From NCBI GenBank assembly GCA_049966275.1, contig JBMFUY010000001.1:4780-68779 (forward strand): 64,000 bases of DNA, in the 5' to 3' direction. Below, one piece after another: positions 12,945 to 63,401 of this stretch (positions within the stretch are counted from its first letter, which is position 1; each line of letters begins with the position of its first letter). Source of the stretch: a bacterium (GTDB lineage Bacteria > JAMCPX01). The notes below the pieces were generated by a model. That model was not told where the DNA came from. It ran no database searches and saw nothing but the letters and a program-made list of their open reading frames with translations. The translations under genes were made by a program, and so were the position numbers.

Positions 12945-13213
12945 TTAACCCGAAAAATGCAATAGGAAAGTTTGCTCATTCGTTCGGGGTACCCATCCAA
13001 AGGATGGGTCGTGCGATCCACCTAAGATACAAAGACTTTTTGCTGTAAAGGAGGTTTAAGTCCTTTGTATGTTTATATGCAATCACATTCCGTTTCTTTT
13101 TTTCTAATATTCGAAGAATACCTATATTTGACGCGTGACCCTTCCCTTCGGGTGGGTACCCCATCACTCATTACACAAACTTCCCTATTTCGCAAATGCA
13201 TTTTTCGGGTTAA
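12945..13213 (+). mobile_element. MITE-like element, long (269-bp) form, copy 1
   Basis: Termini TTAACCCGAAAAATGCA...TGCATTTTTCGGGTTAA (17-bp terminal inverted repeats), flanked by TTAA. Near-identical copies at 28485..28710 and 44321..44589; the 100-bp core is shared with 37706..37808 and 60411..60512. Confidence 0.8.
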
Positions 13214-13312
13214 TATGTTTTGAATTGAGTTTAAATGAAAAGCCTCAACATTATCTTGACACTTCATGAAATATAGTTTACGCATGTCTACATTAATTAT
13301 GGATACTATGCA

Positions 13313-27610: not shown

Positions 27611-28567
27611 ATGATACAAACCAAACATGTTGAGAATGTACATCTACCACATGGCCTTAAAAAACATATTAGTTTAAGTGGGGAGGTGCACAGAACAAAG
27701 GTAGTTCTGCGGGCAAACAGGATCCACACAGTGTGTGAATCAGCCCGTTGTCCCAATATCAGCGAATGCTTTGGTATGCATCGCGCAACATTTATGATCA
27801 TGGGAGATATATGTACAAGGGCATGCAGGTTCTGTTCTATTGATAAAGGGCATCCAGCAAAGATTGATCCTGAGGAGCCTTACAGAATAGCTAAGAGTGT
27901 TGCTGAGCTTGGCATAATGCATGCTGTTATAACATCTGTTACCAGAGATGATCTTAATGATGGTGGTGCAGACCACTTTTATAGAACAGTGTGCGTTGTT
28001 AAAGAACTTAATCCAGATGTCACTGTAGAGCTGCTAACCCCGGACTTTAAGGGTAACAGGGACGCGATTATGCATCTACTTGAGGCTGATTTTGAGATAT
28101 TTAATCACAATGTGGAGACTGTACCACGCCTATACAGGGGAATAAGGCCCCAGGCTTTGTATGAACGTTCCATTGAAGTGCTTGGTTTTGTAAAACGTCA
28201 GAAGCGCATCATCATTAAGTCAGGATTAATGGTTGGGCTTGGAGAAACCATGGAAGAGGTAAAGGCTGTACTCAGGGATTTAAAGGAAGTGGGATGTGAT
28301 ATTGTTACCATAGGTCAGTATCTTATGCCAACATCACAGAATATACCGGTTCAGGCATATATAACTCAAGAATTGTATGATGAGTACGAGAGATTCGGTA
28401 GAGAAATTGGCATCCCATTTGTTTATGCCGGTCCTTTTATCAGAAGTTCATACCATGCGCAGGAGATTATGAATAAATTAGTCATTAACCCGAAAAATGC
28501 AATAGGGAAGTTTGCTCATTCGTTCAACCCTGCGATCCACCTAAGATACAAAGACTTTTTGCTGTAA
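27611..28567 (+). CDS. lipA: Lipoyl synthase; the last ~28 codons and the stop are supplied by an inserted MITE
   Basis: Radical-SAM CxxxCxxC (CTRACRFC) plus N-terminal Cys cluster (CESARCPNISEC) and SSYHA motif. The ORF runs into repeat copy 28485..28710 (…MNKLV|INPKNAIGKFAHSFNPAIHLRYKDFLL*). Confidence 0.9.
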   Translation: MIQTKHVENVHLPHGLKKHISLSGEVHRTKVVLRANRIHTVCESARCPNISECFGMHRATFMIMGDICTRACRFCSIDKGHPAKIDPEEPYRIAKSVAELGIMHAVITSVTRDDLNDGGADHFYRTVCVVKELNPDVTVELLTPDFKGNRDAIMHLLEADFEIFNHNVETVPRLYRGIRPQALYERSIEVLGFVKRQKRIIIKSGLMVGLGETMEEVKAVLRDLKEVGCDIVTIGQYLMPTSQNIPVQAYITQELYDEYERFGREIGIPFVYAGPFIRSSYHAQEIMNKLVINPKNAIGKFAHSFNPAIHLRYKDFLL

Positions 28568-28710
28568 AGGAGGCTTAAGTCCTTTGTATGTTTATATGCA
28601 ATCACATTCCGTTTCTTTTTTTCTAATATTCGAAGAATACCTATATTTGACGCGGGGTTATCACTCATTACACAAACTTCCCTATTTCGCAAACGCATTT
28701 TTCGGGTTAA
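28485..28710 (+). mobile_element. MITE-like element, 226-bp form (long form with two internal deletions), copy 2, inserted in the 3' end of lipA
   Basis: Same TTAACCCGAAAAATGCA / TGCATTTTTCGGGTTAA termini, flanked by TTAA. Removing the element and one TTAA restores an in-frame lipA ending …KLVINPQRA*. Confidence 0.8.
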
Positions 28711-37705: not shown

Positions 37706-37808
37706 TTAACCCGAAAAATGCAATAGGAAAGTTTGCTCATTCGTTCGGGGTACCCCATCACTCATTACACAAACTTCCCTATTTCGCAAATGCATTTTTT
37801 TGGGTTAA
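37706..37808 (+). mobile_element. MITE-like element, short (103-bp) near-palindromic core form, copy 3
   Basis: TTAACCCGAAAAATGCAATAGGAAAGTTTGCTCATTCGTTCGGGGTACCCCATCACTCATTACACAAACTTCCCTATTTCGCAAATGCATTTTTTTGGGTTAA; the two halves are imperfect inverted repeats. Confidence 0.8.
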
Positions 37809-37871: not shown

Positions 37872-39341
37872 TTATGGGTATGAGGCAAGCGCGAGTTGCC
37901 AGTGGGTTCCATCAAAGTACGAAAAATAAAGGAATATGTTATTTAAAATGAACATAGGTGATTGCACCCCATTGCTATACGTAAGTTTTGGATTTGAATA
38001 AGATTTAAGCCAGGTTACACCATCAGTGGATGTTGCGTAATTTATAGTAAAATTGCCTGAAGAGTTGATACCAGTATAGTACATTTTGTAAACCTTCTGG
38101 TCTTTTGAAACAGTTGATTGATATGCTCCATCAGCATCAGTGCCGGTTCCTGACACATCAAGTATCACTGCCTCAACCCCATTTTTTGTGTACTTTGCCC
38201 AGTTTATACCATCGGATGATGTTGCATATCCAATGCGCCAGGTTGTACCATCGTATCCTGAGAACCACATCTTGTATATGCCATTATCCTTTATAACGCA
38301 TGGGAAGGCAACCCCTAAATAATCCCATGTGCCTGTTGTACCGGTGTTTAATACAGGTGTACTGTTTACTGTCCAGGTGATCCCATTTGCAGAGCTGGCA
38401 TATCCGATACGTATAAAGTGTCCATCGTATCCTGTAAACCATACCTTGAACATGCCATTATCATACATAAAACTTGAACCGGAAATATCCGTAGCATAAA
38501 ATGTAGTTGGACTTATACTTAAAACAGGGTTACCCGCATACTTTGTCCATGTTTTAGCATCCTGTGATGTTGCAAGTCCTATATTCCATGTGGAGCCGTT
38601 ATTACCGGAGTATAGCATATAAAATGTACCTTTTACATTTATCACAGAAGGGAAAGCCACGCCAGTATTGTCCCAGCCAGAGCCTGAAATACTCAGGATC
38701 GGTGAATTGTTAATCCGCCATGGAATAGAAAGTACATTTATGCCAACGGATGAAGTTGCCTGCGGTGCGGTTGCATCTGAAAACGTTATGCTTGCAGGTC
38801 CTTCCCTATTTAACCATGCACTGAATGTAGCAGTACCATTGGAAAAGTTTGATATGGATGTGGGTGTAATATCGCCCCAGCTTGAGTGTAATAAGAGTGT
38901 TCCACTGTATGTTTGAAGTATTGCATTATCAAGCATTGCAGATACTGTTATAGAAAATGGCTGATCCTCAATTGTTGTAAAAGGTGTTGATGCAGAGAAG
39001 GAGGTTGCGAGTAAATGAAGTACCATGGGCAATGCCTTGACAGTTTGTCCTGCAATAACAGTAATATGCTGAGAACTTGATGCATATCCGGCTCTGGTGG
39101 CATTAAGTGTATAAGTGCCCGCGGGTATACCGGTTAATATATAATTTCCCTGTGTATCTGTGTAAGCTATAATAGAGGTACCACTTACATAAACGAGTAT
39201 ATTTTGAGGGGATGTCTGGTCGTTTAATATAACAGTGCCTGATATACTTCCGGTAGAAGGATTGGTTGAAGAACCACCACATCCAGCCTGGATGATGGTT
39301 AATAATAAGAATGCAAAAGCTAAAACCAGGTATTGCCTCAT
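37872..39341 (-). CDS. Secreted protein: N-terminal carboxypeptidase-regulatory/Ig-like domain plus five-bladed beta-propeller glycoside-hydrolase-like domain (GH43/GH32/GH130 superfamily-like)
   Basis: Signal peptide. Repeated blades of the type W(D/N)..GVAFP.VI…Y(K)M(W/Y)(F/Y)(S/T)G(Y)DG..W(R)IG(Y/L)ATS.DG..W. Confidence 0.6.
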   Translation of the reverse strand: MRQYLVLAFAFLLLTIIQAGCGGSSTNPSTGSISGTVILNDQTSPQNILVYVSGTSIIAYTDTQGNYILTGIPAGTYTLNATRAGYASSSQHITVIAGQTVKALPMVLHLLATSFSASTPFTTIEDQPFSITVSAMLDNAILQTYSGTLLLHSSWGDITPTSISNFSNGTATFSAWLNREGPASITFSDATAPQATSSVGINVLSIPWRINNSPILSISGSGWDNTGVAFPSVINVKGTFYMLYSGNNGSTWNIGLATSQDAKTWTKYAGNPVLSISPTTFYATDISGSSFMYDNGMFKVWFTGYDGHFIRIGYASSANGITWTVNSTPVLNTGTTGTWDYLGVAFPCVIKDNGIYKMWFSGYDGTTWRIGYATSSDGINWAKYTKNGVEAVILDVSGTGTDADGAYQSTVSKDQKVYKMYYTGINSSGNFTINYATSTDGVTWLKSYSNPKLTYSNGVQSPMFILNNIFLYFSYFDGTHWQLALASYP

Positions 39342-44320: not shown

Positions 44321-44589
44321 TTAACCCCCAAAAAATGTAATGAGGAAATTTCTTTATTCACCCGGGGTACCCATGCAGAGCATGGATCGTGCGATCCAAT
44401 CGATAGCTATATGTTTCCTTATAGAAACGAGGTTTTAGTCCTTTGTATGTTTATATGCAATCACATTCCGTTCTTTTTTTCTAATATTCGAAGAATACCT
44501 ATATTTGACGCGTGACCCTTCCCTTCGGGTGGATACCCCATCACTCATTACACAAACTTCCCTATTTCGCAAATGCATTTTGGGGTTAA
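44321..44589 (+). mobile_element. MITE-like element, long (269-bp) form, copy 4, with a degenerate left terminus
   Basis: TTAACCCCCAAAAAATG…GCAAATGCATTTTGGGGTTAA; the internal ~170-bp module is shared with copies 1 and 2. The terminal TTAA supplies the stop codon of the adjacent minus-strand gene. Confidence 0.75.
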
Positions 44590-45248
44590 TGTTTGCCTGC
44601 CTCATTTACCCATTTCTGGATCGCATTGGTGTATACAAGTGCTGATGATGTTGAGATCGCTGTGTTGAGTATGGGTTGTTTTTCAAGCATGTATCTAATC
44701 AAGAAACTAAGTGAGCTTATATCAGTGTATACCCTGTAGAAACCAATGGTCTTTTTGCCATTATCTACAGGCAGGAATTTCCATGATCCTTCTACAGTTT
44801 TAAGATTACCAGCAACCCTTGTCCATGTAATACTGTCCGGAGGATTTAAAACATGTTTCAGTGTATAGTTTGCGTGTTCGGATAGAATAGAGAATTTAAA
44901 CTCAACTTTATAGTCTACGATCAGTACATTACCATTTTTCTGGACGACCTTTACACTTGTGGTTTGTGGTATATGCTTTGCATAATCATTGTAGTCTGAG
45001 ACTATAGAAAAAACCTCGTTTATGGGCGCATTGAACAATGTTATAACAGTAACAAACTGAGGCTTTCCAGGCACTTCTTTATCAATAGATACGAGCTGTT
45101 CATCCTTCAGAATACTTCCAAACAGGTTGGGCGATGTTAATGCCAGCTGCTCAAGGGCTGACATTTGCTGGGCATTTGTTATTCCCGGGAGCAATAAAAG
45201 AAATGTGATTGTTAAAATCACGTAAGCCATTTTGTGTTTGATAAGCAT
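44586..45248 (-). CDS. Secreted hypothetical protein, possibly SRPBCC/START-like fold
   Basis: 220 aa with signal peptide (MAYVILTITFLLLLPGITNA). The fold assignment is weak. Confidence 0.45.
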   Translation of the reverse strand: MLIKHKMAYVILTITFLLLLPGITNAQQMSALEQLALTSPNLFGSILKDEQLVSIDKEVPGKPQFVTVITLFNAPINEVFSIVSDYNDYAKHIPQTTSVKVVQKNGNVLIVDYKVEFKFSILSEHANYTLKHVLNPPDSITWTRVAGNLKTVEGSWKFLPVDNGKKTIGFYRVYTDISSLSFLIRYMLEKQPILNTAISTSSALVYTNAIQKWVNEAGKH

Positions 45249-45344: not shown

Positions 45345-45794
45345 TTATATTAACTGGAAATGGGATAGATCCGCTAATACCCCATGGGTCTCTTCCTTCC
45401 ACACCACCTTTACCCGCATACCCTCTTTCACGCTTTTCCAGTCTGTCCAGCCTTCAAGTATACCCATTAGATAAGAATCAGAACCGTCAAGTTTTACAGT
45501 GCATGTAATGTAAGGATGTTCAACTGGATTACCCCTGACATCAGAAAGGTTAACTGTAAAGGCATCCAGTACACCTTCCTGTTTAACCTCAACAACCTCA
45601 TCTATGTCTATAAAACATTTTCTGCAGTACGTTGGTCCTGGGACGTACACAGTCCCACACTTTGGACATTTTCTACCGAGTATCTTTTTATCCTTCAGCC
45701 CTTTTACAAATAAACTCAATGCATCTGATTCGATCTTCCATTGATACGTTGTTAGGTCCCATAAACTCTCTATTACTTTTGTTTCCTGAGTCAT
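45345..45794 (-). CDS. DUF35 family Zn-ribbon/OB-fold protein (thiolase-associated subunit)
   Basis: 149 aa; C-x2-C…C-x2-C zinc ribbon (CPKCGTVYVPGPTYCRKC) followed by OB-fold region. Confidence 0.8.
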   Translation of the reverse strand: MTQETKVIESLWDLTTYQWKIESDALSLFVKGLKDKKILGRKCPKCGTVYVPGPTYCRKCFIDIDEVVEVKQEGVLDAFTVNLSDVRGNPVEHPYITCTVKLDGSDSYLMGILEGWTDWKSVKEGMRVKVVWKEETHGVLADLSHFQLI

Positions 45795-45802
45795 AACACC
45801 TC

Positions 45803-47050
45803 CTATCTTTTTACTGGTGTCCTACCAAGGACTGTAACAGTAACAAACTGGAATAATCCACCCCAGCCATGGGCTAATGCATTTTCCACCTTTCCTGGTA
45901 CCTGATGCCCTCCTTCTGCAAGCCCCATAACCTGTAAAGCAGCCTCTCCAACCCTTACCATTGCAGATGCTCCTATTGCATTTGTGCTCGTTACACCACC
46001 TGATGGATTGATAGGCATTTCTCCATCTATTGCAAATGCCCCTTTATCAAGCATCTCCGGGGATTTTCCTTCATCAACCAGACCAAGCCTTTCGGGCCAC
46101 ATAAGATCCTGATGTGAGAAACCAGAGTAAACCTCAGCCACCTGGATCTCTTTTTTAGGATTTTTAATGCCTGCCATTGCATACACCTTGTTTGCAACGA
46201 CCTTACATATGTATTGTTCTGCCGGGTCAGTGATCTGTCCCTCAATAATATTACCGGTCGTTGCATCTGATGTTCCAGAACCAAGTCCTTTAACCCATGC
46301 CACCCTATCTGTTATACCAAACTTCTTTGCCTTTTCTTCTGAAACAAGGATCATGGCTATTGCACCACATGATGTTGGACACGTATGCCCATACCTTAAT
46401 GGATAGGAGATAATTGGTGTTTTCGCTATGTCTGCTTCTGTGCAACCTGGCTGTTGAAGATGTGCATAGGGATTTTTTGCTGCATTGGATCGCATGAGTG
46501 CTGCTATTCTGTCTATGTGTTCTATGCCTGCGTTTGCCTTTGTGAGATATGACATGGCTTGAAATGCAGCTCCACCTGTTGAACCACCCCCTCCAAGTCC
46601 TGCTATGCCACGTTCACTGCTCATATCAGGTCCAAAGTTGAACATAGAAAATGCCTCAGGTAACAATATTCCCATTAATCCCACCTGTGCATCGCCTTCA
46701 TCGTGCTTCTCCCATCCTATTGCCATGACTACATCGTACAAGCCAGATGCTACATGATAGTACGCTGCCTGAAATACAGAGGCCCCGGTTGTACCACCTG
46801 TTGCGATCCTCATTACAGGCTTTTTTGAACCTCCAAAATGATCGCTTGCCCATAAATGTGGCATGTTCACACCTTCAAACGTATGCATATTCCCCACAAC
46901 ATAAGCCTCTATCTGTTCTGGCTTAAGCCTTGTTTTACTTATAGCATTGTCAACTGCGGGTTGAATTAACTCTGGAATGTTAATATCAGGTCTTTTGCTC
47001 ACAAACCTTCCATTATAACCAACACTTATAATTGCCACGTTACGCTTCAT
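45803..47050 (-). CDS. Thiolase-like protein (SCP-x / nonspecific lipid-transfer-type 3-ketoacyl-CoA thiolase family)
   Basis: 415 aa; thiolase-fold N- and C-terminal halves, …MPINPSGG… motif. Confidence 0.78.
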   Translation of the reverse strand: MKRNVAIISVGYNGRFVSKRPDINIPELIQPAVDNAISKTRLKPEQIEAYVVGNMHTFEGVNMPHLWASDHFGGSKKPVMRIATGGTTGASVFQAAYYHVASGLYDVVMAIGWEKHDEGDAQVGLMGILLPEAFSMFNFGPDMSSERGIAGLGGGGSTGGAAFQAMSYLTKANAGIEHIDRIAALMRSNAAKNPYAHLQQPGCTEADIAKTPIISYPLRYGHTCPTSCGAIAMILVSEEKAKKFGITDRVAWVKGLGSGTSDATTGNIIEGQITDPAEQYICKVVANKVYAMAGIKNPKKEIQVAEVYSGFSHQDLMWPERLGLVDEGKSPEMLDKGAFAIDGEMPINPSGGVTSTNAIGASAMVRVGEAALQVMGLAEGGHQVPGKVENALAHGWGGLFQFVTVTVLGRTPVKR

Positions 47051-47052
47051 GA

Positions 47053-48207
47053 TTACCTCCTTATAACAAATACAGTGTTTAATTGTGCACCAGGTCCATC
47101 CTGTGCATGGACAACAGCGGTTTTAGCATTCTTAACCTGATTATCCCCTGCTTCTTTTCTCAACTGTGAAGCAGCTTCAACAAGTCTTATAATACCGGTT
47201 GCATTGATTGGATTTGCCCCGAGTGCTCCCCCTGATGGGTTTATGGGCATTGAACCATCTATCCTGCTTTCACCGTTTCTGACCACATCCCTGCCTGTGC
47301 CTGGCTTAAAGAGTCCCATTGCCTCTGCAAAGATAGGTTCTTCAGAAACAAAGTTGGTATGAATTTCTGCAAGATTGATCTCTTTTTTAGGATTCTTTAT
47401 CCCTGCCATTTTGTATGCCTTTTTTGCAGCTGCTGACAGATGATCCATTGTAAGAAGGTCACGATCCCCTATATAATAGGTATCCATAAAATGCCCAACA
47501 CCATCTATCCATACCGGCTTATCTGTAAACTTCCTTGCCATCTTTTTTGATGTAAGGATAACAGCGCATGCACCATCAGCATAGGCTGAAACATGTGCCT
47601 CTCTGATAGGCATGTATAAAGGTTTTGAACTTAGAACCTTTTCAACAGATGGATTGTCTTCTTTTCTTGCTGCGAACGGATTTCTATTTGCATTCTCAAG
47701 ATTTTTTACAGTGAGCTTTGCAAGGTCTTCTTCTGTGAACCTATACTTCTTCATGTATGCATTTGCCTGCAAACCTGCAATGGAGTAATAATTTATAAGC
47801 CCTCTGGGTCTTTCATAGGCAGGATCAAGCGTGTATGATTGAATAAGTGGGACTCTGAATTCAGAGCCAGACATGCTGAAGCCAATAACAAGCGCTGTAC
47901 TGTACAATCCTGAAAGGATCCGCATGTACCCATACAACACAGCACTCAAACCATCTGACTCTACCTTTGTCTCATCCTTCATGTACGCACCTACCCGTGG
48001 AACAGTAAACACCTCTGAGATTGTTCTGCCATCAGTAAAATCATTGCTTGCCAGAATAAACGTATCTATATCATCCCTTGTAATACCAAGCTCTTCAAAC
48101 AAAGATTTCACAAGCTCGTATACCATTCTCTCTCTTGCAACAGGGCTATTAAAACTGTGTTTTGTTTGTTTATAACCAACAATGGCTACTCTTTCATTCA
48201 TAAACAC
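47053..48207 (-). CDS. Thiolase-like protein, paralogue of the preceding gene
   Basis: 384 aa; shares KNPKKEI…AE…MPINPSGG motifs with the neighbour. Confidence 0.75.
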   Translation of the reverse strand: MFMNERVAIVGYKQTKHSFNSPVARERMVYELVKSLFEELGITRDDIDTFILASNDFTDGRTISEVFTVPRVGAYMKDETKVESDGLSAVLYGYMRILSGLYSTALVIGFSMSGSEFRVPLIQSYTLDPAYERPRGLINYYSIAGLQANAYMKKYRFTEEDLAKLTVKNLENANRNPFAARKEDNPSVEKVLSSKPLYMPIREAHVSAYADGACAVILTSKKMARKFTDKPVWIDGVGHFMDTYYIGDRDLLTMDHLSAAAKKAYKMAGIKNPKKEINLAEIHTNFVSEEPIFAEAMGLFKPGTGRDVVRNGESRIDGSMPINPSGGALGANPINATGIIRLVEAASQLRKEAGDNQVKNAKTAVVHAQDGPGAQLNTVFVIRR

Positions 48208-48216
48208 CTCCGTTTT

Positions 48217-48669
48217 CTATTGCACTGCTTCAAAATATAAAAGGTCGCTGTAATCCCCCTGAGTGCTTTCTTTCCAAACTGCCTTTACCCGCATACCCGT
48301 TTTAATTGCATCAACAGAAGGGGCTTTCACAATAGCTGATATCAGGCTTGAAGCTCCTTTTAATTTTATCAAACCTATAACATAGGGTTCCTGAGCATCT
48401 TTGATCTCGCCATTAACAATATTTACATACGAGATCGTAAAATTCTTCAATGTACCTTCCTGGCTGATCTCAACCATTTTATCTATTGGCTTGTGACATG
48501 TACTGCATACTGTGCGTGGTGGTACATAAACCTTCTTGCAGGTTGGACATTTAACACCCAGGATCTTTCTTTCTTTAAGTCCTCCTATGAATTGTTCCAG
48601 AGCTTTGCCTACCCTGTTTTTGTAAACAAAAGTTATAGGCACTGTAGCCTTTACAACTTCTCCTGGCAT
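48217..48669 (-). CDS. DUF35 family Zn-ribbon/OB-fold protein (second copy)
   Basis: 150 aa; CPTCKKVYVPPRTVCSTC zinc ribbon plus OB-fold. Confidence 0.8.
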   Translation of the reverse strand: MPGEVVKATVPITFVYKNRVGKALEQFIGGLKERKILGVKCPTCKKVYVPPRTVCSTCHKPIDKMVEISQEGTLKNFTISYVNIVNGEIKDAQEPYVIGLIKLKGASSLISAIVKAPSVDAIKTGMRVKAVWKESTQGDYSDLLYFEAVQ

Positions 48670-48796
48670 ATAACCCTCCTTTCAGAAACAGACTATACAG
48701 AAATTAAATGCTCATTGCAAGCATTTTGATTATTCAATCAATTGATGTGGGTCTATTATCTTGAAAACTTTTAAATGTATGCTTTTATAGATCATT

Positions 48797-49684
48797 ATGA
48801 AATCAGGACTCATTGCAGTTATAGGAAGACCCAATGTTGGTAAATCTACATTATTGAACAGACTGGTTGGAGAAAAGCTTTCAATTATTTCTCCAAAACC
48901 TCAAACAACATGGCAGAGATTACATGGCATTCTAACAACAGAGGATGCTCAATTTGTTTTTATAGATACACCTGGATTAGAAACAGATAAAAACTCTAAT
49001 TTTATCTCAATCCTTAAAAAAATAAGCATCACAGCTATGAATGATGCTGATGTGATTGCACATATTGTAGAGCCAATTATAACAGACAGGGAAGAGGCTA
49101 TACAAAAAGAGTTGAAAAAAATCTTGCAAAAGCCCAAAGTTCTTATCATAAACAAGATTGATCTGAAGAAAGATAAAAGATTGCTTCTGCCTGTTATTGA
49201 GCATTATGCAAAAACTGGTCTGTACAATGACATAATACCTTTATCTGCCATCACAGGGGATGGCGTTGATACCCTGCTAAAAGAACTGAAAAAATATCTA
49301 CCCAATGATGGTATGCTTTACAGCAATGACACGATCACAGACAAATATGAAAAAGAACTCGTTGCTGAAATCATAAGAGAAAAATTGTTTTACTTTACAA
49401 GAGAAGAGATACCTTATTCTTCAGCGTGTGTTGTTGATAGGTTTGATGAGACACAGAGAGACAGGATCGTTAAAATATACGCTACAATCTATGTAGAAAA
49501 GATGTCACAAAAGGGAATACTCATTGGAGCAAATGGTTCAATGTTGAAAAGGATAGGTACATCTGCGAGAAAGGATATAGAGAGATTGTTGGGTACAAAG
49601 GTTTATCTATCATTATATGTGAAGGTAATGAAGAACTGGAAAAAGGATAAACAGTTTCTTAAAGAGATAGGTTTGTTAAAATGA
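48797..49684 (+). CDS. era: GTPase Era
   Basis: 295 aa; G1 GRPNVGKSTL, DTPG, C-terminal KH domain. Confidence 0.92.
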   Translation: MKSGLIAVIGRPNVGKSTLLNRLVGEKLSIISPKPQTTWQRLHGILTTEDAQFVFIDTPGLETDKNSNFISILKKISITAMNDADVIAHIVEPIITDREEAIQKELKKILQKPKVLIINKIDLKKDKRLLLPVIEHYAKTGLYNDIIPLSAITGDGVDTLLKELKKYLPNDGMLYSNDTITDKYEKELVAEIIREKLFYFTREEIPYSSACVVDRFDETQRDRIVKIYATIYVEKMSQKGILIGANGSMLKRIGTSARKDIERLLGTKVYLSLYVKVMKNWKKDKQFLKEIGLLK

Positions 49685-50991: not shown

Positions 50992-51821
50992 CAATGCCTA
51001 AAAAACAAAACTCTGTTATACAGATGACAATCGATAGGTTTATTGCAGACACGTGTTTATCACATGCTGCTGCACTATCTTTTTATACCATATTGTCTAT
51101 CATTCCTCTATTGTTTGTCCTTGTTTCTGTTGGTAGCTATATTGTTGGCTCCACGCATAACTTTTTTCTGTATATAACATCCATTCTAAAACAGTTTATA
51201 CCAGATGTATCAAATGCTGTTATAAATGATGTGGGAAATTTATTAAAAAAACGCAGCACCATAGGAATCGTTGGATTTATATTTCTCTTATTTTCATCTG
51301 ATCTTGCACTGCTTGAAGCAAAACGTTCACTTGATGTGATCTTCAGACTTGAGAAACGTAAAAACCCTTTGTTTATAAAAGGGAAATCCATGCTTGTGAT
51401 CCTTGTAAGCGGTGTATTCATATCATTCTTATTTGTTATTACGCCTTTATTTAAGATCCTGATAAAATTGGACCTATCGTATATAAGTACACCGCTTTAT
51501 ATTCTGGCACGTATTCTATCAAGTCGCGTATTTGCTTTTTTTATGATCTTCTCTTTATTCACATCTGCTTATTACTTCTTACCTTCTAAAAAGATCGGAG
51601 GTAAATATGCTTTTCTGGCAGGAGGGATAACATCCGTACTGTGGACAATTGTAAGGGTATTATTCTCATGGTATATCAAAAACCATTCTAAAATAAATAT
51701 AGTTTATGGTTCTATCGCTGCAATCATTATTGCTATTGTATGGGTCTATTATACATCGCTTATCTTTCTATTTTCTGCTGAATTAGTCTCAAGCATTAAG
51801 GAAAAAATGGAGCTGCATTGA
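50988..51821 (+). CDS. YihY/BrkB family inner membrane protein
   Basis: 277 aa polytopic membrane protein with the YihY signature region (…LSHAAALSFYTILSIIPLLFV…). Confidence 0.8.
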   Translation: MTMPKKQNSVIQMTIDRFIADTCLSHAAALSFYTILSIIPLLFVLVSVGSYIVGSTHNFFLYITSILKQFIPDVSNAVINDVGNLLKKRSTIGIVGFIFLLFSSDLALLEAKRSLDVIFRLEKRKNPLFIKGKSMLVILVSGVFISFLFVITPLFKILIKLDLSYISTPLYILARILSSRVFAFFMIFSLFTSAYYFLPSKKIGGKYAFLAGGITSVLWTIVRVLFSWYIKNHSKINIVYGSIAAIIIAIVWVYYTSLIFLFSAELVSSIKEKMELH

Positions 51822-53286
51822 AGAAGCCATTAAGAGTACCCATTAACCTTAAATACATGCTTCCGGTGGTATTACTTACGATTGTAATAATATCTATTTA
51901 TACTTTATTCATAAGACTCAGCACAGAAAGCGTTTTCAGACAATATCTTGAGGATGAGATAAGGCTGATAATAAACGATGTAAACAAGACAATTACCATT
52001 CATATGCTAAAGGGACAGGGTAAGGACTTTAGTTTTTATCTTTCAAGTCTCTACAATTATGAGATAAAAGATATAATTGCAATAGGCATACTCTCTCCAA
52101 ATGGTAAACCCTTATACCTGTATTCTAAAGACAACATAAAGGGAATAGAAATACCACAGTTAAAAAGCTATCTTAACATGGTAATGATAAAACATCGCAA
52201 CAACATAGAGGTGTTTTATCCTATTAACAATGAGAAGATATGCTATAGGTGTCATGGTTCCGGGAAAACATTGCTTGGGCTGTTATATATAAATACATCA
52301 ACTCAAAGATACAATAAGGCATTTGCAGGGCTTATGGCAAACTGGTTTACCATGAGTGTGGTTATAACTTCGATACTGATATTTTCAATATGGCTCATTA
52401 AACCATTGTTATAGAAAGACCTGTGGAAGAGCTTGTAAATACACTGAAAAGAGCATCAGAGGGTGATCTCTCTGCCAGATCAGGCTTTAAAGAAAACGAT
52501 GAATTGGGTTTTTTAAGTGAACAACTCAATAAAATGCTGGATAGGCTTGCATACAGGGAAGCAGAGTACAAAAGGCTTGCAGAACTACAGCTTCAACAGA
52601 TGGACAAACTTGCATCTCTTGGAGAGATATCCCTGTCTCTTGCACACGAGATAAGGAATCCATTGGCTGGTATAAGCGGTGTTTTACAGGTGTTCAAAGA
52701 TGACTTTGTTACTGACCAGGAGCGATCCGCTATTTTCACACAACTTATGGCTCAGATAAATAAAATAGATAGGCTTGTCGGGGATATGTTAAAATTTGCA
52801 AAATTCCCTTCGCACGGCATCTCAACCTTTAACATAAATGAGAGCATAAAAACATTAAAACAATTGCTTTCCCCTCAAGCTTCAACCAATCATGTAACCG
52901 TTACATTAGACCTTGATGACAGTATGCCGGATATTGCAGAGGATAGAGATGCATTTGAGCAGGCGATCCTCAATCTTATGCTCAATGCAATACAGGCAAT
53001 GCCCGATGGAGGTGTACTGAATGTCACAACAGAATTTACAGATAAGTTTGGAGAACCGTATATCTTAATAAAAGTCAGTGATACAGGTAAAGGTATACCT
53101 CAGGATATAAAAGATAGGATCTTTGATCCATTTTTCACAACAAAACGAGATGGTACAGGGCTTGGACTCGCAATAAGCCTGAATGCTATAAGGACAATGA
53201 ATGGCAGCATAACCTTTGAATCTGAAGAAGGAAGAGGCACCACGTTTTTTTTACGGGTGCCTTACAGAAGTGCTGGAAAAAGATAA
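51818..53286 (+). pseudogene. Sensor histidine kinase (periplasmic sensor–TM–HAMP–HisKA–HATPase) interrupted by a -1 frameshift at ~52410
   Basis: ORF 51818..52414 carries TM1–sensor–TM2 and ends …IWLIKPLL*. ORF 52423..53286 in another frame carries HAMP (…ASEGDLSARS…), H-box (SLAHEIRNPLAGI) and the HATPase G-boxes. One missing base in 'ttata' would fuse them. Confidence 0.65.
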
Positions 53287-53340
53287 AAATTGCATTTTTA
53301 CAACAAACATGGAACAGTATATTTAAGATAGGATAATACT

Positions 53341-54686
53341 ATGGGCACAGTACTTATTATAGATGATGAGCAGCTTGTAAGGTGGTCTATAGAGAAGCTT
53401 CTCTCAAAAGATGGACATGAGATCATTTCAGCAGACACAGGAGCAGCGGGACTTTTAAAGTTGAAGGATAGTACGCCTGATATAGTATTACTGGACATGA
53501 AATTGCCGGATATCGATGGTATAGAGGTATTACGCACAATAAAGAAAGACACGCCAGAGCTGCCTGTTGTTATAATAACAGCATACGGTAGTATAGATTC
53601 TGCAATAGATGCTATAAAAAATGGTGCCTTTGATTACATTGTTAAGCCATTTGACGCAGAAAAACTCAAGTTGACTGTGAATAGGGCGCTGGAACTTTTC
53701 AAGCTGAAAACAGAGCTTGAGATATTTAAGGATAAAGCACATAATCAGTATGGATTCCATAGGATCGTTGCTGAATCAACAGCAGTTAAGCAGGCAATAG
53801 ATATAGCAAAAAAGCTCGCAATGAGTGACACCACAGTATTGATCCAGGGTGAGAGTGGAACAGGAAAAGAATTGTTTGCAAGGGCAATCCATTGTGCGAG
53901 TCCCAGGCAGGATAGTGCGTTTGTAGATCTTAACTGTTCTGCTATCCCGGTGCATCTCATTGAAAGTGAACTGTTTGGCTATGAAAAAGGGGCTTTTACT
54001 GATGCAAAAACCTCAAAAAAAGCTTATTTGAGCTTGCAGATAAAGGCACTTTATTCCTTGATGAGATAGGAGATATGGATCTTTCAACCCAGGCAAAATT
54101 ATTACGTGTTATTGAAACAAAAAGCTTTAAGAGGCTTGGTGGTACAAAGGATATAACAGTGGATGTGAGGATTATATCAGCAACGAACAAGGATCTGAAA
54201 AAACTGGTAGAGAAAGGCGCATTCAGGGATGATCTGTATTACAGGATCAATGTTGTCCCCCTTGTCATCCCTCCTTTACGAAAAAGAAAGGACGATATTC
54301 CATTGCTTGTTAATTATTTTATAAATGTTATTTCAAAGGATCTGAAAAAAGAGGTTACAGGTATTGAGAAGGAGGCACTGGATTATCTGATAAGATACGA
54401 TTGGCCCGGCAATGTGCGGGAGTTAAAAAATGTTGTAGAGAGGATGATACTTCTCACAAACACAAAGGTTTTGACCAAAGAGTTTATACCTATAGAACTA
54501 ATGGAATCCAATGCTGATACAGACGCAGAGCAATTTAACACTCTGGAGCTTGAAAAGGTGGAAAAGGAACTCATAATAAAGGCTTTATCACTTGCAGAGG
54601 GCAATCAAACAAAAGCAGCTCGGGCGTTGTCCATATCAAGGGATGCATTAAGATATAGGATGAAAAAATACAATATCAAACAATAG
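53341..54686 (+). pseudogene. Sigma-54-dependent response regulator (REC–AAA+ sigma54 activator–HTH, NtrC family) interrupted by a -1 frameshift in an A7 run at ~54016-54022
   Basis: ORF 53341..54069: REC (LIIDDE…DIVLLDMKLPDIDG), Walker A GESGTGKE, GAFTDA (variant of GAFTGA), then out-of-frame tail. Shifted frame reads …KKSLFELADKGTLFLDEIGDMDLSTQAKLLRVIE…, continuous with ORF 54075..54686 (arginine finger, Fis-type HTH). Confidence 0.7.
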
Positions 54687-59343: not shown

Positions 59344-60414
59344 ATGAATTATTTAGATTTTTACAAACTGAAAGAAGAACCCTTCTCAAGTGCACCGGAT
59401 ATTAAGTTTTATTATAACAGTGCTCAACACTCAAAAGCACTTGTAAGGTTGATGTACGCAATTGATTCAATGAAAGGTCTTGCACTATTAATAGGTGATA
59501 TTGGAACCGGAAAAACCACGCTTGCAAGACGCATGCTTGATAGCCTGCCTGAAGAAGAATATGAATCAGCATTACTTGTTATTATCCATTCCGGAATCAC
59601 AGCTGACTGGCTTCTCAAAAAGATAGCAATGCAGCTTGGTATTGCTGAGCCTTCTGAAAACAAGATCACACTCTTATCACAACTGTATGAGCGATTGAAT
59701 GAATTGTATGAACAGCATAAAAAGGCAGTGGTCTTAATAGATGAAGCGCAGATGTTAAAAACAAAAGAGATGATGGAGGAATTTAGAGGGTTATTGAATT
59801 TAGAAGCCCCTGATAGAAAGTTGATCACCTTTGTGTTTTTTGGTTTACCAGAGATAGAAGAAAATTTACTGCTTGATAGTCCACTTGCCCAGCGGGTAGC
59901 ACTTAAATATAGATTGGAATCTTTAAACTATGAGTCCACAGAGGCTTACATAAAACACAGATTAGGGCTCGCGGGGAACAAGGATGAAATATTCACACCT
60001 GATGCTATTGAGAAGATCCATAAGTATTCAAAAGGCATACCAAGGATGATCAATATCATATCCTCAAATGCCTTATTTGAAGGGTTTCTTGTTAAGGCTA
60101 AGGTTATAGATGGTAAGATTATAGATAGTGTTGCTGCAGATTTAGGCGTAACAGGAGAACAGATAGAAAAAAGAGAAGCGCAGGTGAATGAAGAGATCAA
60201 AGAACAACCCATTGTTGAACCTACCAGACAGGTTACGCAGGAGCCTGTTAATGAAAGGGTAAAACAAACACAGGCAAAAGCATCAACAATACCATCCCCT
60301 CCACCAAAATCTGAGGTGACAGCTCCAAAACCTCCTGAAACAAAGCCAAAACAACAGAAACAGGAAGAGGATGAAATTGATTCTATCCTTGATAAGCTTG
60401 AAAAAGGCGGTTAA
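59344..60414 (+). CDS. ExeA/GspA/MshM-like AAA ATPase
   Basis: 356 aa; Walker A GDIGTGKTTLARRM, Walker B VVLIDEAQ; Pro/Lys-rich C-terminal tail. The TAA stop lies inside the TTAA terminus of the adjacent MITE. Confidence 0.75.
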   Translation: MNYLDFYKLKEEPFSSAPDIKFYYNSAQHSKALVRLMYAIDSMKGLALLIGDIGTGKTTLARRMLDSLPEEEYESALLVIIHSGITADWLLKKIAMQLGIAEPSENKITLLSQLYERLNELYEQHKKAVVLIDEAQMLKTKEMMEEFRGLLNLEAPDRKLITFVFFGLPEIEENLLLDSPLAQRVALKYRLESLNYESTEAYIKHRLGLAGNKDEIFTPDAIEKIHKYSKGIPRMINIISSNALFEGFLVKAKVIDGKIIDSVAADLGVTGEQIEKREAQVNEEIKEQPIVEPTRQVTQEPVNERVKQTQAKASTIPSPPPKSEVTAPKPPETKPKQQKQEEDEIDSILDKLEKGG

Positions 60415-60512
60415 CCCCAAAAATGCGTTTGCGAAATAGGGAAGTTTGTGTAATGAGTGATGGGGTACCTCGAACGAATGAGCAAACTTTCCTATTGCAT
60501 TTTTTGGGTTAA
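60411..60512 (-). mobile_element. MITE-like element, short (102-bp) core form, copy 5, inverted orientation
   Basis: Reverse complement matches copy 3 almost base for base; TTAACCCCAAAAATGC…GCATTTTTTGGGTTAA. Confidence 0.8.
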
Positions 60513-62121: not shown

Positions 62122-62158
62122 AAAAAAACGCCTCGTGTGCTCACGAGGCGTTTTTTTA
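62122..62158. terminator. Bidirectional rho-independent terminator between the porin gene and pstS
   Basis: aaaaaaaCGCCTCGTG-tgct-CACGAGGCGttttttt: perfect 9-bp stem with A-run and T-run. Confidence 0.85.
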
Positions 62159-62207
62159 TAACAAAAGCACAAACGTAAAGATAACCCAGCCTTAATATTT
62201 GCTGTTG

Positions 62208-63257
62208 CTATTTTATACTAACACCCTTTAACTGTTCTTCTATCCTGTGTATAATCCTCTCAGGTAAGGGAACATAGTCAAGTGAGGCTGCCATCTTTTG
62301 CCCTTCATCTGAATATATCCATTTGATAAATTCTACGAGCGCCTTACCTTTAACCGGGTCATGCTGATGTTTGTATATTATAAGATAGGTAAACCCTGCT
62401 ATTGGGTAAACATCCTTTCCTTCCGGGTTTATAAACATAATATTGAAATCATCGGGTATGCTTTTTACTGTTGCTGCAGCTGCTCTGCACGATTCAACAC
62501 TGGGAAAAACAAAATAGCCGGATTTATTCTTAACAGCTCCATACGCCATATTATTTTGTAACACATAAGCAAGTTCCACATAACCAATACTACCTCTTGT
62601 CTTTGAAACAAAAGCAGCCACCCCGGGATTCCCTTTGCCGCCTATTCCAGTGGGCCAGTTTACAGATATAGCACTCCCAACCTTTTTTGCCCATTCAGGG
62701 CTTACACTGCTCAAATAAGAAGTAAATATAAATGTAGTTCCGCTCCCATCTGACCTGTGAACAACAACAATAGGAAGATTGGGTAGTTTAATATCCGGAT
62801 TAACTGATTTTATCCTCGGATCATCCCAGGTTGTAATTTTACCAAGATAAATATCCGCCAATATCTGTGGTGTAAACTTTAATCCCTTACCAACACCTGG
62901 AATATTATAAGCAATAGCCACACCCCCAGCAACATCAGGCATCTGAATGAGCCCATACTCCTTTAGCTCTTTTTCATTAAGTGGTGCATCGCTTGCACCA
63001 AAGTCAACGGTCTTTGCCCTGATCTGCTGTATACCTCCACCACTACCTATAGGTTGATAATTGATCTTGATGCCTGTCCTTTTTTCGTACTCATACGACC
63101 ATTTTGATAATAATGGGTAAACAAATGTAGAACCAGCACCGCTCAGCGTCACATTCTGTGATTGACCTGCAAATACAGGATGTGAAAGTGATGTTAAGCC
63201 CGGAACAAGCACTGCAAATACCAGAATGGCAACACCACTCAGCCGTTTTATCTGCAT
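62208..63257 (-). CDS. pstS: Phosphate ABC transporter substrate-binding protein PstS
   Basis: PBP2 PstS-type motifs (…LSGAGSTFVYPL…; …GSGGGIQQI…; …SDGSGTTF…). Start placed at the internal Met MQIKRLSGVAILVF…, which has a GAGGA RBS; the track ORF extends to 63350. Confidence 0.8.
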   Translation of the reverse strand: MQIKRLSGVAILVFAVLVPGLTSLSHPVFAGQSQNVTLSGAGSTFVYPLLSKWSYEYEKRTGIKINYQPIGSGGGIQQIRAKTVDFGASDAPLNEKELKEYGLIQMPDVAGGVAIAYNIPGVGKGLKFTPQILADIYLGKITTWDDPRIKSVNPDIKLPNLPIVVVHRSDGSGTTFIFTSYLSSVSPEWAKKVGSAISVNWPTGIGGKGNPGVAAFVSKTRGSIGYVELAYVLQNNMAYGAVKNKSGYFVFPSVESCRAAAATVKSIPDDFNIMFINPEGKDVYPIAGFTYLIIYKHQHDPVKGKALVEFIKWIYSDEGQKMAASLDYVPLPERIIHRIEEQLKGVSIK

Positions 63258-63401
63258 AATCCTCAGCCTTATACCCGCTACCAGATACAGGTATTTACTC
63301 TTTAACTTTAGTTTTAATCTTTTCATTTTTTTTCCTCCTTGCTTATACATTAAGCTGCGTGTGTAAAACCTGTATTACAAATAGGTATAATATGGGTAAA
63401 T

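What the first reader, a model, noticed from the sequence alone, without database searches (positions are those of the whole stretch)
44321..44589. MITE termini coincide with stop codons of adjacent genes
In two copies the TTAA terminus overlaps the stop codon of a neighbouring gene. TAA at 60412-60414 ends the ExeA-like gene, and the complement of TTA at 44586-44588 ends the minus-strand gene 44586..45248. A third copy sits inside the last codons of lipA.

This fits a TTAA target preference that often hits TAA stops in an AT-rich genome. It puts a ~100-nt hairpin directly after coding regions, where it could act as a terminator or mRNA-stability element, much as REP and Correia elements do.
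Basis: partly seen in the sequence, partly recalled or inferred. Interest (0 to 1): 0.5.

Follow-up and report, generated by a model that had tools for sequence, protein, structure and literature searches.

The report
Active TTAA-targeting MITE at gene ends
A small mobile hairpin element that inserts at TTAA sites really does overlap the stop codons of two genes here, but about as often as its target preference plus removal of harmful insertions would predict, so the coincidence is ordinary; the element itself is undescribed and still moving in a hot-spring bacterial population.

Summary
The window holds five copies of one terminal-inverted-repeat element, each flanked TTAA...TTAA. They come as short forms (102-103 nt) and long forms (226-269 nt).

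- Copy D (44321-44589): its right TTAA contains the stop of the minus-strand gene 44586..45248.
- Copy E (60411-60512): its left TTAA contains the TAA stop of the ExeA-like gene.
- Copy B: sits 5 codons before the native lipA stop and gives LipA a 27-aa element-derived tail.

The overlap is not more than chance. With the copies removed in silico, 9 of 39-58 non-disruptive TTAA sites overlap a stop, so P(at least 2 of 5) is 0.17-0.33. With 12 sites from sister MAGs, 3 overlap stops (P 0.28-0.55).

Sister MAGs (99.5-99.9% identical) show the element is mobile. Three window TTAA sites (52224, 62192, 62228) are empty here and filled elsewhere, and other copies lie inside coding regions.

The consensus scans of three copy regions found no terminator-like site. 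Copy D itself folds poorly.

Verdict: a new, active MITE family with a TTAA target. The stop-codon overlap is a by-product. A role as terminator or mRNA stabiliser is unsupported but not excluded. The transposase was not found.

The parts
44321..44589 (+). Copy D: long-form MITE (269 nt), the flagged element. The left arm and left internal part are diverged (86% to copy A); the right ~155 nt are near-identical to A.
   Evidence: weak RNA fold, z -1.7
44586..44589 (.). Right TTAA of copy D. The complement of 44586-44588 is the TAA stop of gene 44586..45248(-).
44586..45248 (-). SRPBCC/Polyketide_cyc gene whose stop lies in the TTAA of copy D.
60411..60512 (-). Copy E: short-form MITE (102 nt), opposite orientation to A-D. 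TTAA 60411-60414 contains the TAA stop 60412-60414.
59344..60414 (+). AAA_22 (ExeA-like) ATPase gene whose stop lies in the left TTAA of copy E.
28485..28710 (+). Copy B: long-form variant ('B-type', 226 nt), inserted 5 codons before the native lipA stop. This is the subtype of all polymorphic (young) insertions.
27611..28567 (+). lipA, now 318 aa, with a 27-aa MITE-encoded C-terminal tail (NPKNAIGKFAHSFNPAIHLRYKDFLL).
12945..13213 (+). Copy A: long form ('A-type', 269 nt) between the divergent starts of the Peptidase_M48/htpX-like gene (-) and an ABC permease gene (+). Not at a gene 3' end.
37706..37808 (+). Copy C: short form (103 nt), 64 nt past the stop of 37872..39341(-) and just upstream of mnmE.
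52224..52227 (.). Empty TTAA target (site F). In sister MAGs a B-type copy is inserted here, at codon 136 of a histidine-kinase gene. An empty allele also occurs in one of those MAGs.
62192..62195 (.). Empty TTAA target (site G), filled in GCA_049968555.1. Convergent intergenic region, 13 nt past a TAG stop and downstream of a canonical terminator.
62228..62231 (.). Empty TTAA target (site K), filled in GCA_049971705.1. About 6 codons before the stop of the solute-binding-protein gene 62208..63350(-).

Best explanation

Anatomy:
- The outermost 16 nt of the two ends form a perfect inverted repeat (TTAACCCGAAAAATGC at the left end, its reverse complement at the right end). Pairing continues imperfectly for about 45 nt.
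- Short copies (~102 nt) are essentially one hairpin.
- Long copies carry a non-coding core of about 125-170 nt, in two versions (A-type and B-type).

Mechanism (inferred): a transposase supplied in trans inserts the element at TTAA. It occasionally uses a related tetranucleotide. TTAA ends up on both sides.

Why stops are hit: the frame xxT|TAA of a TTAA is by definition a stop codon, so an insertion there leaves the protein unchanged and is tolerated. About 92% of TTAA sites lie inside genes, and insertions there are mostly removed by selection. The overlap of termini with stop codons is therefore a by-product of target specificity plus purifying selection. It is not targeting of gene ends and not evidence of a 3'-end function.

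Shown: the element's anatomy, the TTAA duplication, polymorphism between strains, and the chance-level overlap rate.
Inferred: cut-and-paste mobilisation by a DDE-type transposase, and the selective filter.
For: - Five window copies share invariant arm sequences; none is expected by chance.
- All are flanked TTAA...TTAA.
- Site F shows both junctions: the empty allele reads cctaTTAAcaatg, and the filled alleles read cctaTTAAcccg... and ...cgggTTAAcaatg.
- Two further window TTAAs are filled in other MAGs at 99.9% flank identity.
- At least 20 distinct sites were seen at DNA level and 7 more through proteins that read into the element.
- Chance model: the stop-overlap share of tolerated TTAA sites is 0.16-0.23. 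Observed 2 of 5 and 3 of 12 give P = 0.17-0.55.
- Young polymorphic insertions: 0 of 4 at stops. Copies shared by all MAGs: 3 of 8. This is as expected if selection filters a broad insertion spectrum.
- No conserved ORF: the six-frame translations are full of stops and differ between copies.
- No Rfam match.
- No terminator or promoter consensus in the scanned regions around copies D, E and B.
Against: - No transposase with matching ends was found in about 90 kb examined, so trans-mobilisation and the transposase family are inferred.
- The site sample is small (12 unbiased sites), so a two- to three-fold real enrichment at stops could not be detected.
- All three stop-overlapping copies, and 7 of 10 copies downstream of a co-directional gene, have the orientation whose RNA folds best (-39/-40 versus -27/-31 kcal/mol). 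This could hint at RNA-level selection. It is not significant (P = 0.34) and is confounded with the gene-strand switch at ~48.7 kb (Fisher P = 0.07).
Confidence: 0.85

Rival explanations
1. The copies at gene ends are retained because the hairpin functions in the 3' UTR. It could be a transcription terminator, a barrier to 3' exonucleases (like REP) or an RNase III/E substrate (like Correia and ERIC). The overlap with stops would then reflect selection for function.
For: - Short and B-type copies fold far better than shuffles (z -4.7 to -7.9).
- Copies after co-directional genes are mostly in the better-folding orientation (7 of 10).
- Such roles are documented for other MITEs (review PMC10969869).
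Against: - The scans of the regions around copies D, E and B found no G+C-rich stem followed by a T run.
- The flagged copy D folds at z -1.7.
- The overlap rate equals the neutral expectation.
- Copy G landed downstream of an existing canonical terminator.
- Copies A and H lie between divergent starts.
- Site J has both orientations.
- Copies B and K read in the weaker orientation.
Confidence: 0.1
2. The transposase actively targets gene ends or stop codons beyond the bare TTAA, for example through local DNA structure or coupling to transcription termination.
For: 3 of 12 sites overlap stops, against 1.8% of all TTAA sites (P about 0.001 without selection).
Against: - The young polymorphic insertions are at codon 136 of a kinase gene, 6 codons before a stop, in a convergent spacer and at a gene 5' end.
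- Peptide-detected copies interrupt aprA, an RND pump gene, an MFS gene, otsA and otsB.
- This spectrum looks like unselective TTAA use.
Confidence: 0.03
3. The element is not a DDE-type MITE. It is instead a REP/RAYT-type palindrome, or a derivative of an IS200/IS605 element that inserts next to a tetranucleotide without duplication.
For: - It is a palindromic element next to a fixed tetranucleotide.
- Orientation correlates weakly with the strand switch (Fisher P = 0.07), as is known for IS200/IS605 (own knowledge).
Against: - The inverted repeats reach the very ends, and the two arms pair with each other.
- The empty site has one TTAA and the filled site has two.
- One site has both orientations.
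Confidence: 0.02

Closest known systems
Correia elements (CREE/NEMIS) of Neisseria
   Same: Roughly 100-150-nt TIR hairpin MITEs, many copies, often beside or overlapping gene ends, co-transcribed with neighbours. RNase III processing is documented for them (PMC10969869).
   Different: - Unrelated sequence and host.
- Correia duplicates TA (own knowledge). Here the flank is TTAA, with TTGA, TGGA and ATAA variants.
- No IHF site or outward promoter was detected here, and no RNA data exist.
ERIC/IRU elements of enterobacteria and Yersinia
   Same: A palindromic element of about 127 nt. Insertions at gene 3' ends change mRNA levels in an orientation-dependent way (PMC10969869).
   Different: No sequence relation. 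The effect on mRNA is untested here. ERICs are largely immobile today (own knowledge), whereas this family is polymorphic between strains that are 99.5-99.9% identical (most pairs at least 99.7%).
piggyBac-type elements and their MITEs (eukaryotes), and the prokaryotic IS1380 family
   Same: TTAA target present on both sides, and element ends CCC...GGG (piggyBac: TTAA-CCCTAGAAAG...; own knowledge). IS1380 transposases are the prokaryotic distant relatives of piggyBac (PMC10140906). IS1380 elements have CC ends and 4-5-bp duplications (own knowledge).
   Different: No transposase was found, so this resemblance is only a lead. Three to four junctions use non-TTAA tetranucleotides.
IS630/Tc1-mariner-derived bacterial MITEs (e.g. 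RUP)
   Same: A TIR hairpin MITE. A TA duplication inside a palindromic NTAN context would give the same TTAA...TTAA picture.
   Different: Junctions TTGA and TGGA lack the central TA, which argues against a strict TA requirement.
QMITEs of Coxiella and RPEs of Rickettsia
   Same: MITE sequence becomes part of host ORFs and alters protein termini (PMC5896051, from the title and abstract listed). Here LipA, Lnt and MtnA gain element-encoded tails.
   Different: RPEs insert in frame inside genes (own knowledge). Here only C-terminal replacements and truncations were seen, although the short form has one frame open throughout.

Membership tests
Prokaryotic MITE (non-autonomous TIR transposon) | Small size and no transposase gene | tested here: met
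   102-269 nt. Six-frame translations are full of stops, and small ORFs are not conserved between copies.
Prokaryotic MITE (non-autonomous TIR transposon) | Terminal inverted repeats | tested here: met
   The outermost 16 nt of the two ends are a perfect inverted repeat, and pairing continues to about 45 nt. The folds show a single long hairpin.
Prokaryotic MITE (non-autonomous TIR transposon) | Target-site duplication shown by empty versus filled sites | tested here: met
   Site F has a single TTAA in the window and in L007, and TTAA at both junctions in L002 and L006. Sites G and K each show one junction.
Prokaryotic MITE (non-autonomous TIR transposon) | Multiple dispersed copies, presence/absence polymorphism | tested here: met
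   At least 20 sites at DNA level. F, G and K vary among MAGs that are 99.5-99.9% identical.
Prokaryotic MITE (non-autonomous TIR transposon) | A cognate autonomous IS with the same ends | not testable with these tools
   No transposase in the window or in the fetched flanks. The genome-collection scan returned a single locus. The metagenome and viral scans found nothing real.
Rho-independent terminator | G+C-rich stem-loop immediately followed by a T/U run | tested here: not met
   No terminator-like site in the scanned regions around copies D, E and B on either strand. The U run of the element is paired inside the stem.
IS630/Tc1-mariner-type MITE | Invariant TA target dinucleotide, duplicated | tested here: inconclusive
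   Canonical junctions fit either TA or TTAA. Junctions TTGA (L024) and TGGA (L025) lack TA, but only one end of those copies is visible.
piggyBac / IS1380-like element | 4-bp TTAA duplication with CC(C)...GG(G) termini | tested here: met
piggyBac / IS1380-like element | Mobilised by a DDD/DDE transposase of that family | not testable with these tools
   No transposase was recovered.
REP/BIME (RAYT-mobilised) or IS200/IS605 derivative | No terminal inverted repeats pairing end to end, and no target duplication | tested here: not met
   This element has end-to-end TIRs and a duplicated TTAA.
Correia/ERIC sequence families; any Rfam family | Sequence or structure similarity to the family | tested here: not met
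   No Rfam match at the gathering threshold over the window, nor at E<=1 over copy A. No match among plasmid records.

The most novel reading that the evidence does not exclude
This is a bacterial, currently active, TTAA-preferring cut-and-paste element with piggyBac-like ends (TTAA|CCC...GGG|TTAA), mobilised by an undiscovered IS1380/piggyBac-related transposase. Its 'empty' alleles and the opposite orientations at one site could then reflect seamless excision and re-insertion, the hallmark of piggyBac. A lesser variant of this reading is that the better-folding orientation is selected in 3' UTRs.
Probability: 0.12. Interest if true: 0.6.

Novelty: new member of a known kind. Interest (0 to 1): 0.3.

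Why it matters
Mostly practical.
- **Annotation:** the element creates false C-terminal extensions (LipA +27 aa; also Lnt and MtnA) and truncated ORFs.
- **Assembly:** it breaks MAG assemblies. Most sister-MAG contigs end inside a copy.
- **Strain markers:** it gives strain-level markers for a natural population. Insertions are segregating in a histidine-kinase gene, aprA, an RND pump gene and otsAB.
- **Method:** it shows that "MITE at a stop codon" needs a target-site null model before any function is inferred.
- **Possible tool:** if the partner transposase proves to be a TTAA-specific IS1380/piggyBac relative, it would be a useful bacterial counterpart of piggyBac.

Tried and rejected
- **Genome-collection scan** with an invariant 21-mer.
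- **Metagenome scan**. The only hit was a chance 21-mer inside a deacetylase gene, with no element.
- **Viral contig scans** and **plasmid blastn**: nothing.
- **Six-frame peptide searches**. These were useful only for copies that ORFs read into, so the set is biased towards coding insertions. I did not use it for the unbiased rate.
- **Rfam**: no family.
- **Small-peptide idea.** The long-form core has AAGGAGG followed 14 nt later by an ATG and a 12-codon ORF. I rejected it because the spacing is poor and the ORF is frameshifted in copy D.
- **Conserved internal hairpin in the long form.** Rejected, because copy D changes one strand without compensation.
- **Orientation bias as evidence of function.** Not significant, confounded with the strand switch, and contradicted by site J and by L001.
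- **Literature searches** for bacterial TTAA MITEs found no matching family.
- **Two look-ups failed:** P0001 and the gene 62208..63350.

Full report
**What is in the window**

An invariant 34-mer of the right arm occurs five times, with none expected by chance. Four of those copies also match the left-arm probe (copy D's diverged left arm does not), and three share an internal core. Alignment and coordinate checks give these copies:

| Copy | Coordinates | Length | Form |
|---|---|---|---|
| A | 12945-13213 | 269 nt | long, A-type |
| B | 28485-28710 | 226 nt | long, B-type |
| C | 37706-37808 | 103 nt | short |
| D | 44321-44589 | 269 nt | long |
| E | 60411-60512 | 102 nt | short, opposite orientation |

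- Every copy starts with TTAA-CCC and ends with GGG-TTAA.
- The outermost 16 nt of the two ends are a perfect inverted repeat (TTAACCCGAAAAATGC), and pairing continues imperfectly for about 45 nt.
- Short copies are one hairpin. Their RNA folds at -27 to -40 kcal/mol with z -4.7 to -7.2. One strand is about 10 kcal/mol better because of G-U pairs.
- Long copies carry a core of about 125-170 nt between the arms. In the A-type it is bounded by GGGTACCC repeats. In the B-type it is bounded by AACCC/GGGTT.
- The window is 36-42% G+C.

**Checking the observation**

- The right TTAA of copy D (44586-44589) contains the stop of the SRPBCC gene 44586..45248(-).
- The left TTAA of copy E (60411-60414) contains the TAA stop 60412-60414 of the AAA_22/ExeA-like gene.
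- Copy B lies in lipA. Removing it restores ...KLVINPQRA*, which places the insertion 5 codons before the native stop.
- The closest LipA homologues (66-76% identity) are 285-295 aa and end at that point. The window protein is 318 aa with an element-encoded tail.

There are three caveats:
- Copy D is a 269-nt long form, not a ~100-nt hairpin. Its left arm is diverged and its transcript strand folds at z -1.7.
- Copy A lies between two divergent gene starts.
- Copy C lies in a tandem spacer, 64 nt past a stop.

**Is it more than chance?**

I removed the five copies in silico, leaving one TTAA each. I then called 54 long ORFs (95% coding) and classified all 493 TTAA sites:

| Class | Sites |
|---|---|
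| Deep in coding sequence | 435 |
| Last 10 codons | 18 |
| At a gene edge | 1 |
| Intergenic | 30 |
| Overlapping a stop | 9 |

Nine of the 54 genes end in T-TAA. If only non-disruptive insertions persist, 16-23% of permissible sites overlap a stop, so P(at least 2 of 5) = 0.17-0.33. With the enlarged, unbiased set of 12 sites described below, 3 overlap stops (P = 0.28-0.55). For the copies shared by all MAGs it is 3 of 8 (P = 0.11-0.27). Against all TTAA sites the overlap is enriched (P about 0.001), which is what removal of coding insertions predicts.

**Related genomes: mobility and target**

- The window belongs to a 69.7-kb contig of an NCBI MAG labelled only "bacterium".
- Five sister MAGs were fetched, and they share 99.5-99.9% identity with the window over the mapped stretches.
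- Their contigs mostly end inside copies of the element.
- Site F: the window and L007 read cctaTTAAcaatg (52224-52227). L002, L003, L006 and L016 carry a B-type copy there, with TTAA at both junctions. It sits at codon 136 of a histidine-kinase gene, and the truncated 144-aa product is on record.
- Site G (62192-62195) is filled in one MAG.
- Site K (62228-62231) is filled in another MAG, 36 bp from G and about 6 codons before a stop.
- Beyond the left end of the window lie three more copies. H is in a divergent spacer and abuts an older degenerate copy. I has its left TTAA as the TAA stop of an Slp gene, which makes a third stop overlap. J is 27 nt past a stop.
- Beyond the right end lies copy M, at the 5' end of a kinase gene.
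- Site J carries the element in opposite orientations in two MAGs.
- G, K and J (in L010) share an identical arm haplotype, so a source copy is active now.

**Copies found through proteins**

A search with six-frame translations of the element found 11 partial proteins from these MAGs that read into it.
- C-terminal replacements: Lnt and MtnA.
- Interruptions: aprA, an RND pump gene, an MFS gene, otsA, otsB (polymorphic, 37 codons before the stop), a multihaem cytochrome gene and others.
- Some junctions are non-canonical: ATAA, TTGA and TGGA. TTAA is therefore preferred, not obligatory.
- Those junctions also mean the central TA is not invariant.
- This protein-derived set is biased towards coding insertions, so I excluded it from the rate estimate.

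**Function**

- The consensus scans of the regions around copies D, E and B found no terminator-like and no promoter-like site inside an element. The organism does have ordinary terminators, for example at 62123-62157.
- Rfam has no match.
- Orientation is not significantly biased (7 of 10, P = 0.34). What bias exists is confounded with the gene-strand switch near 48.7 kb (Fisher P = 0.07).
- The hairpin could still affect mRNA fate, as Correia and ERIC elements do (PMC10969869). Nothing here requires that.

**Comparison and novelty**

By anatomy and behaviour this is a MITE: TIRs, a target duplication, no coding capacity, many copies and presence/absence polymorphism. No known family matches, and it was absent from the JGI metagenome, viral and plasmid collections searched.

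Its TTAA flank with CCC...GGG ends recalls piggyBac and its prokaryotic relatives, the IS1380 family (PMC10140906; the IS1380 end features are from my own knowledge). The transposase was not found, so the family remains open.

**Verdict**

This is a new member of a known kind. The stop-codon coincidence is real but explained, and the proposed terminator or stability role is unsupported. Interest 0.3.

Noticed in passing
window 51818-54686 (and L006, L007, L014, L016, L017): A two-component system is decaying in the population through three independent lesions. (1) The histidine kinase is intact (489 aa) in some MAGs and frameshifted by a 1-nt deletion near 52400 in the window. (2) It is interrupted by the MITE at 52224 in other MAGs. 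(3) The sigma54-type response regulator is split in the window but reads through in L007.
   Followed up: partly
L010 16425 and L011 16390 (same flank aggaatatacTTAA): The same TTAA site carries a B-type copy in opposite orientations in two MAGs. The cause could be independent hits, excision and re-insertion, or in-place inversion across the inverted repeats.
   Followed up: partly
L018 2398; L024 ~76-80; L025 ~75-80: Non-canonical junction tetranucleotides (ATAA, TTGA, TGGA) occur next to otherwise intact element ends, all at contig-end copies, so only one junction is visible.
   Followed up: partly
L010 ~13150-13260: An older, degenerate relative of the element directly abuts copy H. The TTAA at its end appears to have served as the target for the newer insertion.
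   Followed up: no
L024 ~85-300: A different MITE-like repeat lies immediately next to an A-type copy. Its ends are GGTTATTCGACAATT... / ...ACAATTGTCGTATAACC and its core carries GTCATTCTGAG...CTCAGAGTGAC.
   Followed up: no
window 44321-44436: The left arm and left core of copy D are only distantly like the other copies, while its right 155 nt are near-identical to copy A. It looks like a recombinant of two subfamilies.
   Followed up: partly
window ~48669-48797: Gene orientation and GC skew both switch here: genes are on the minus strand to the left and on the plus strand to the right. Element orientation largely follows the switch.
   Followed up: partly
window 45345-48669: Tandem paralogous pairs of DUF35 (zf-ChsH2/OB) and thiolase-like genes account for the unrelated direct repeats D5 and D7.
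   Followed up: no
P0148, P0137 (proteins from sister MAGs): Element copies interrupt aprA (adenylyl-sulfate reductase alpha) and a multihaem cytochrome gene in some population members. This suggests segregating loss-of-function alleles in energy metabolism.
   Followed up: no
L001 (JBNAUV010000026.1): A 2.6-kb contig binned as Minisyncoccales carries a near-identical short copy next to a restriction-modification pair. It is probably mis-binned from the same organism, or else a sign of transfer.
   Followed up: no
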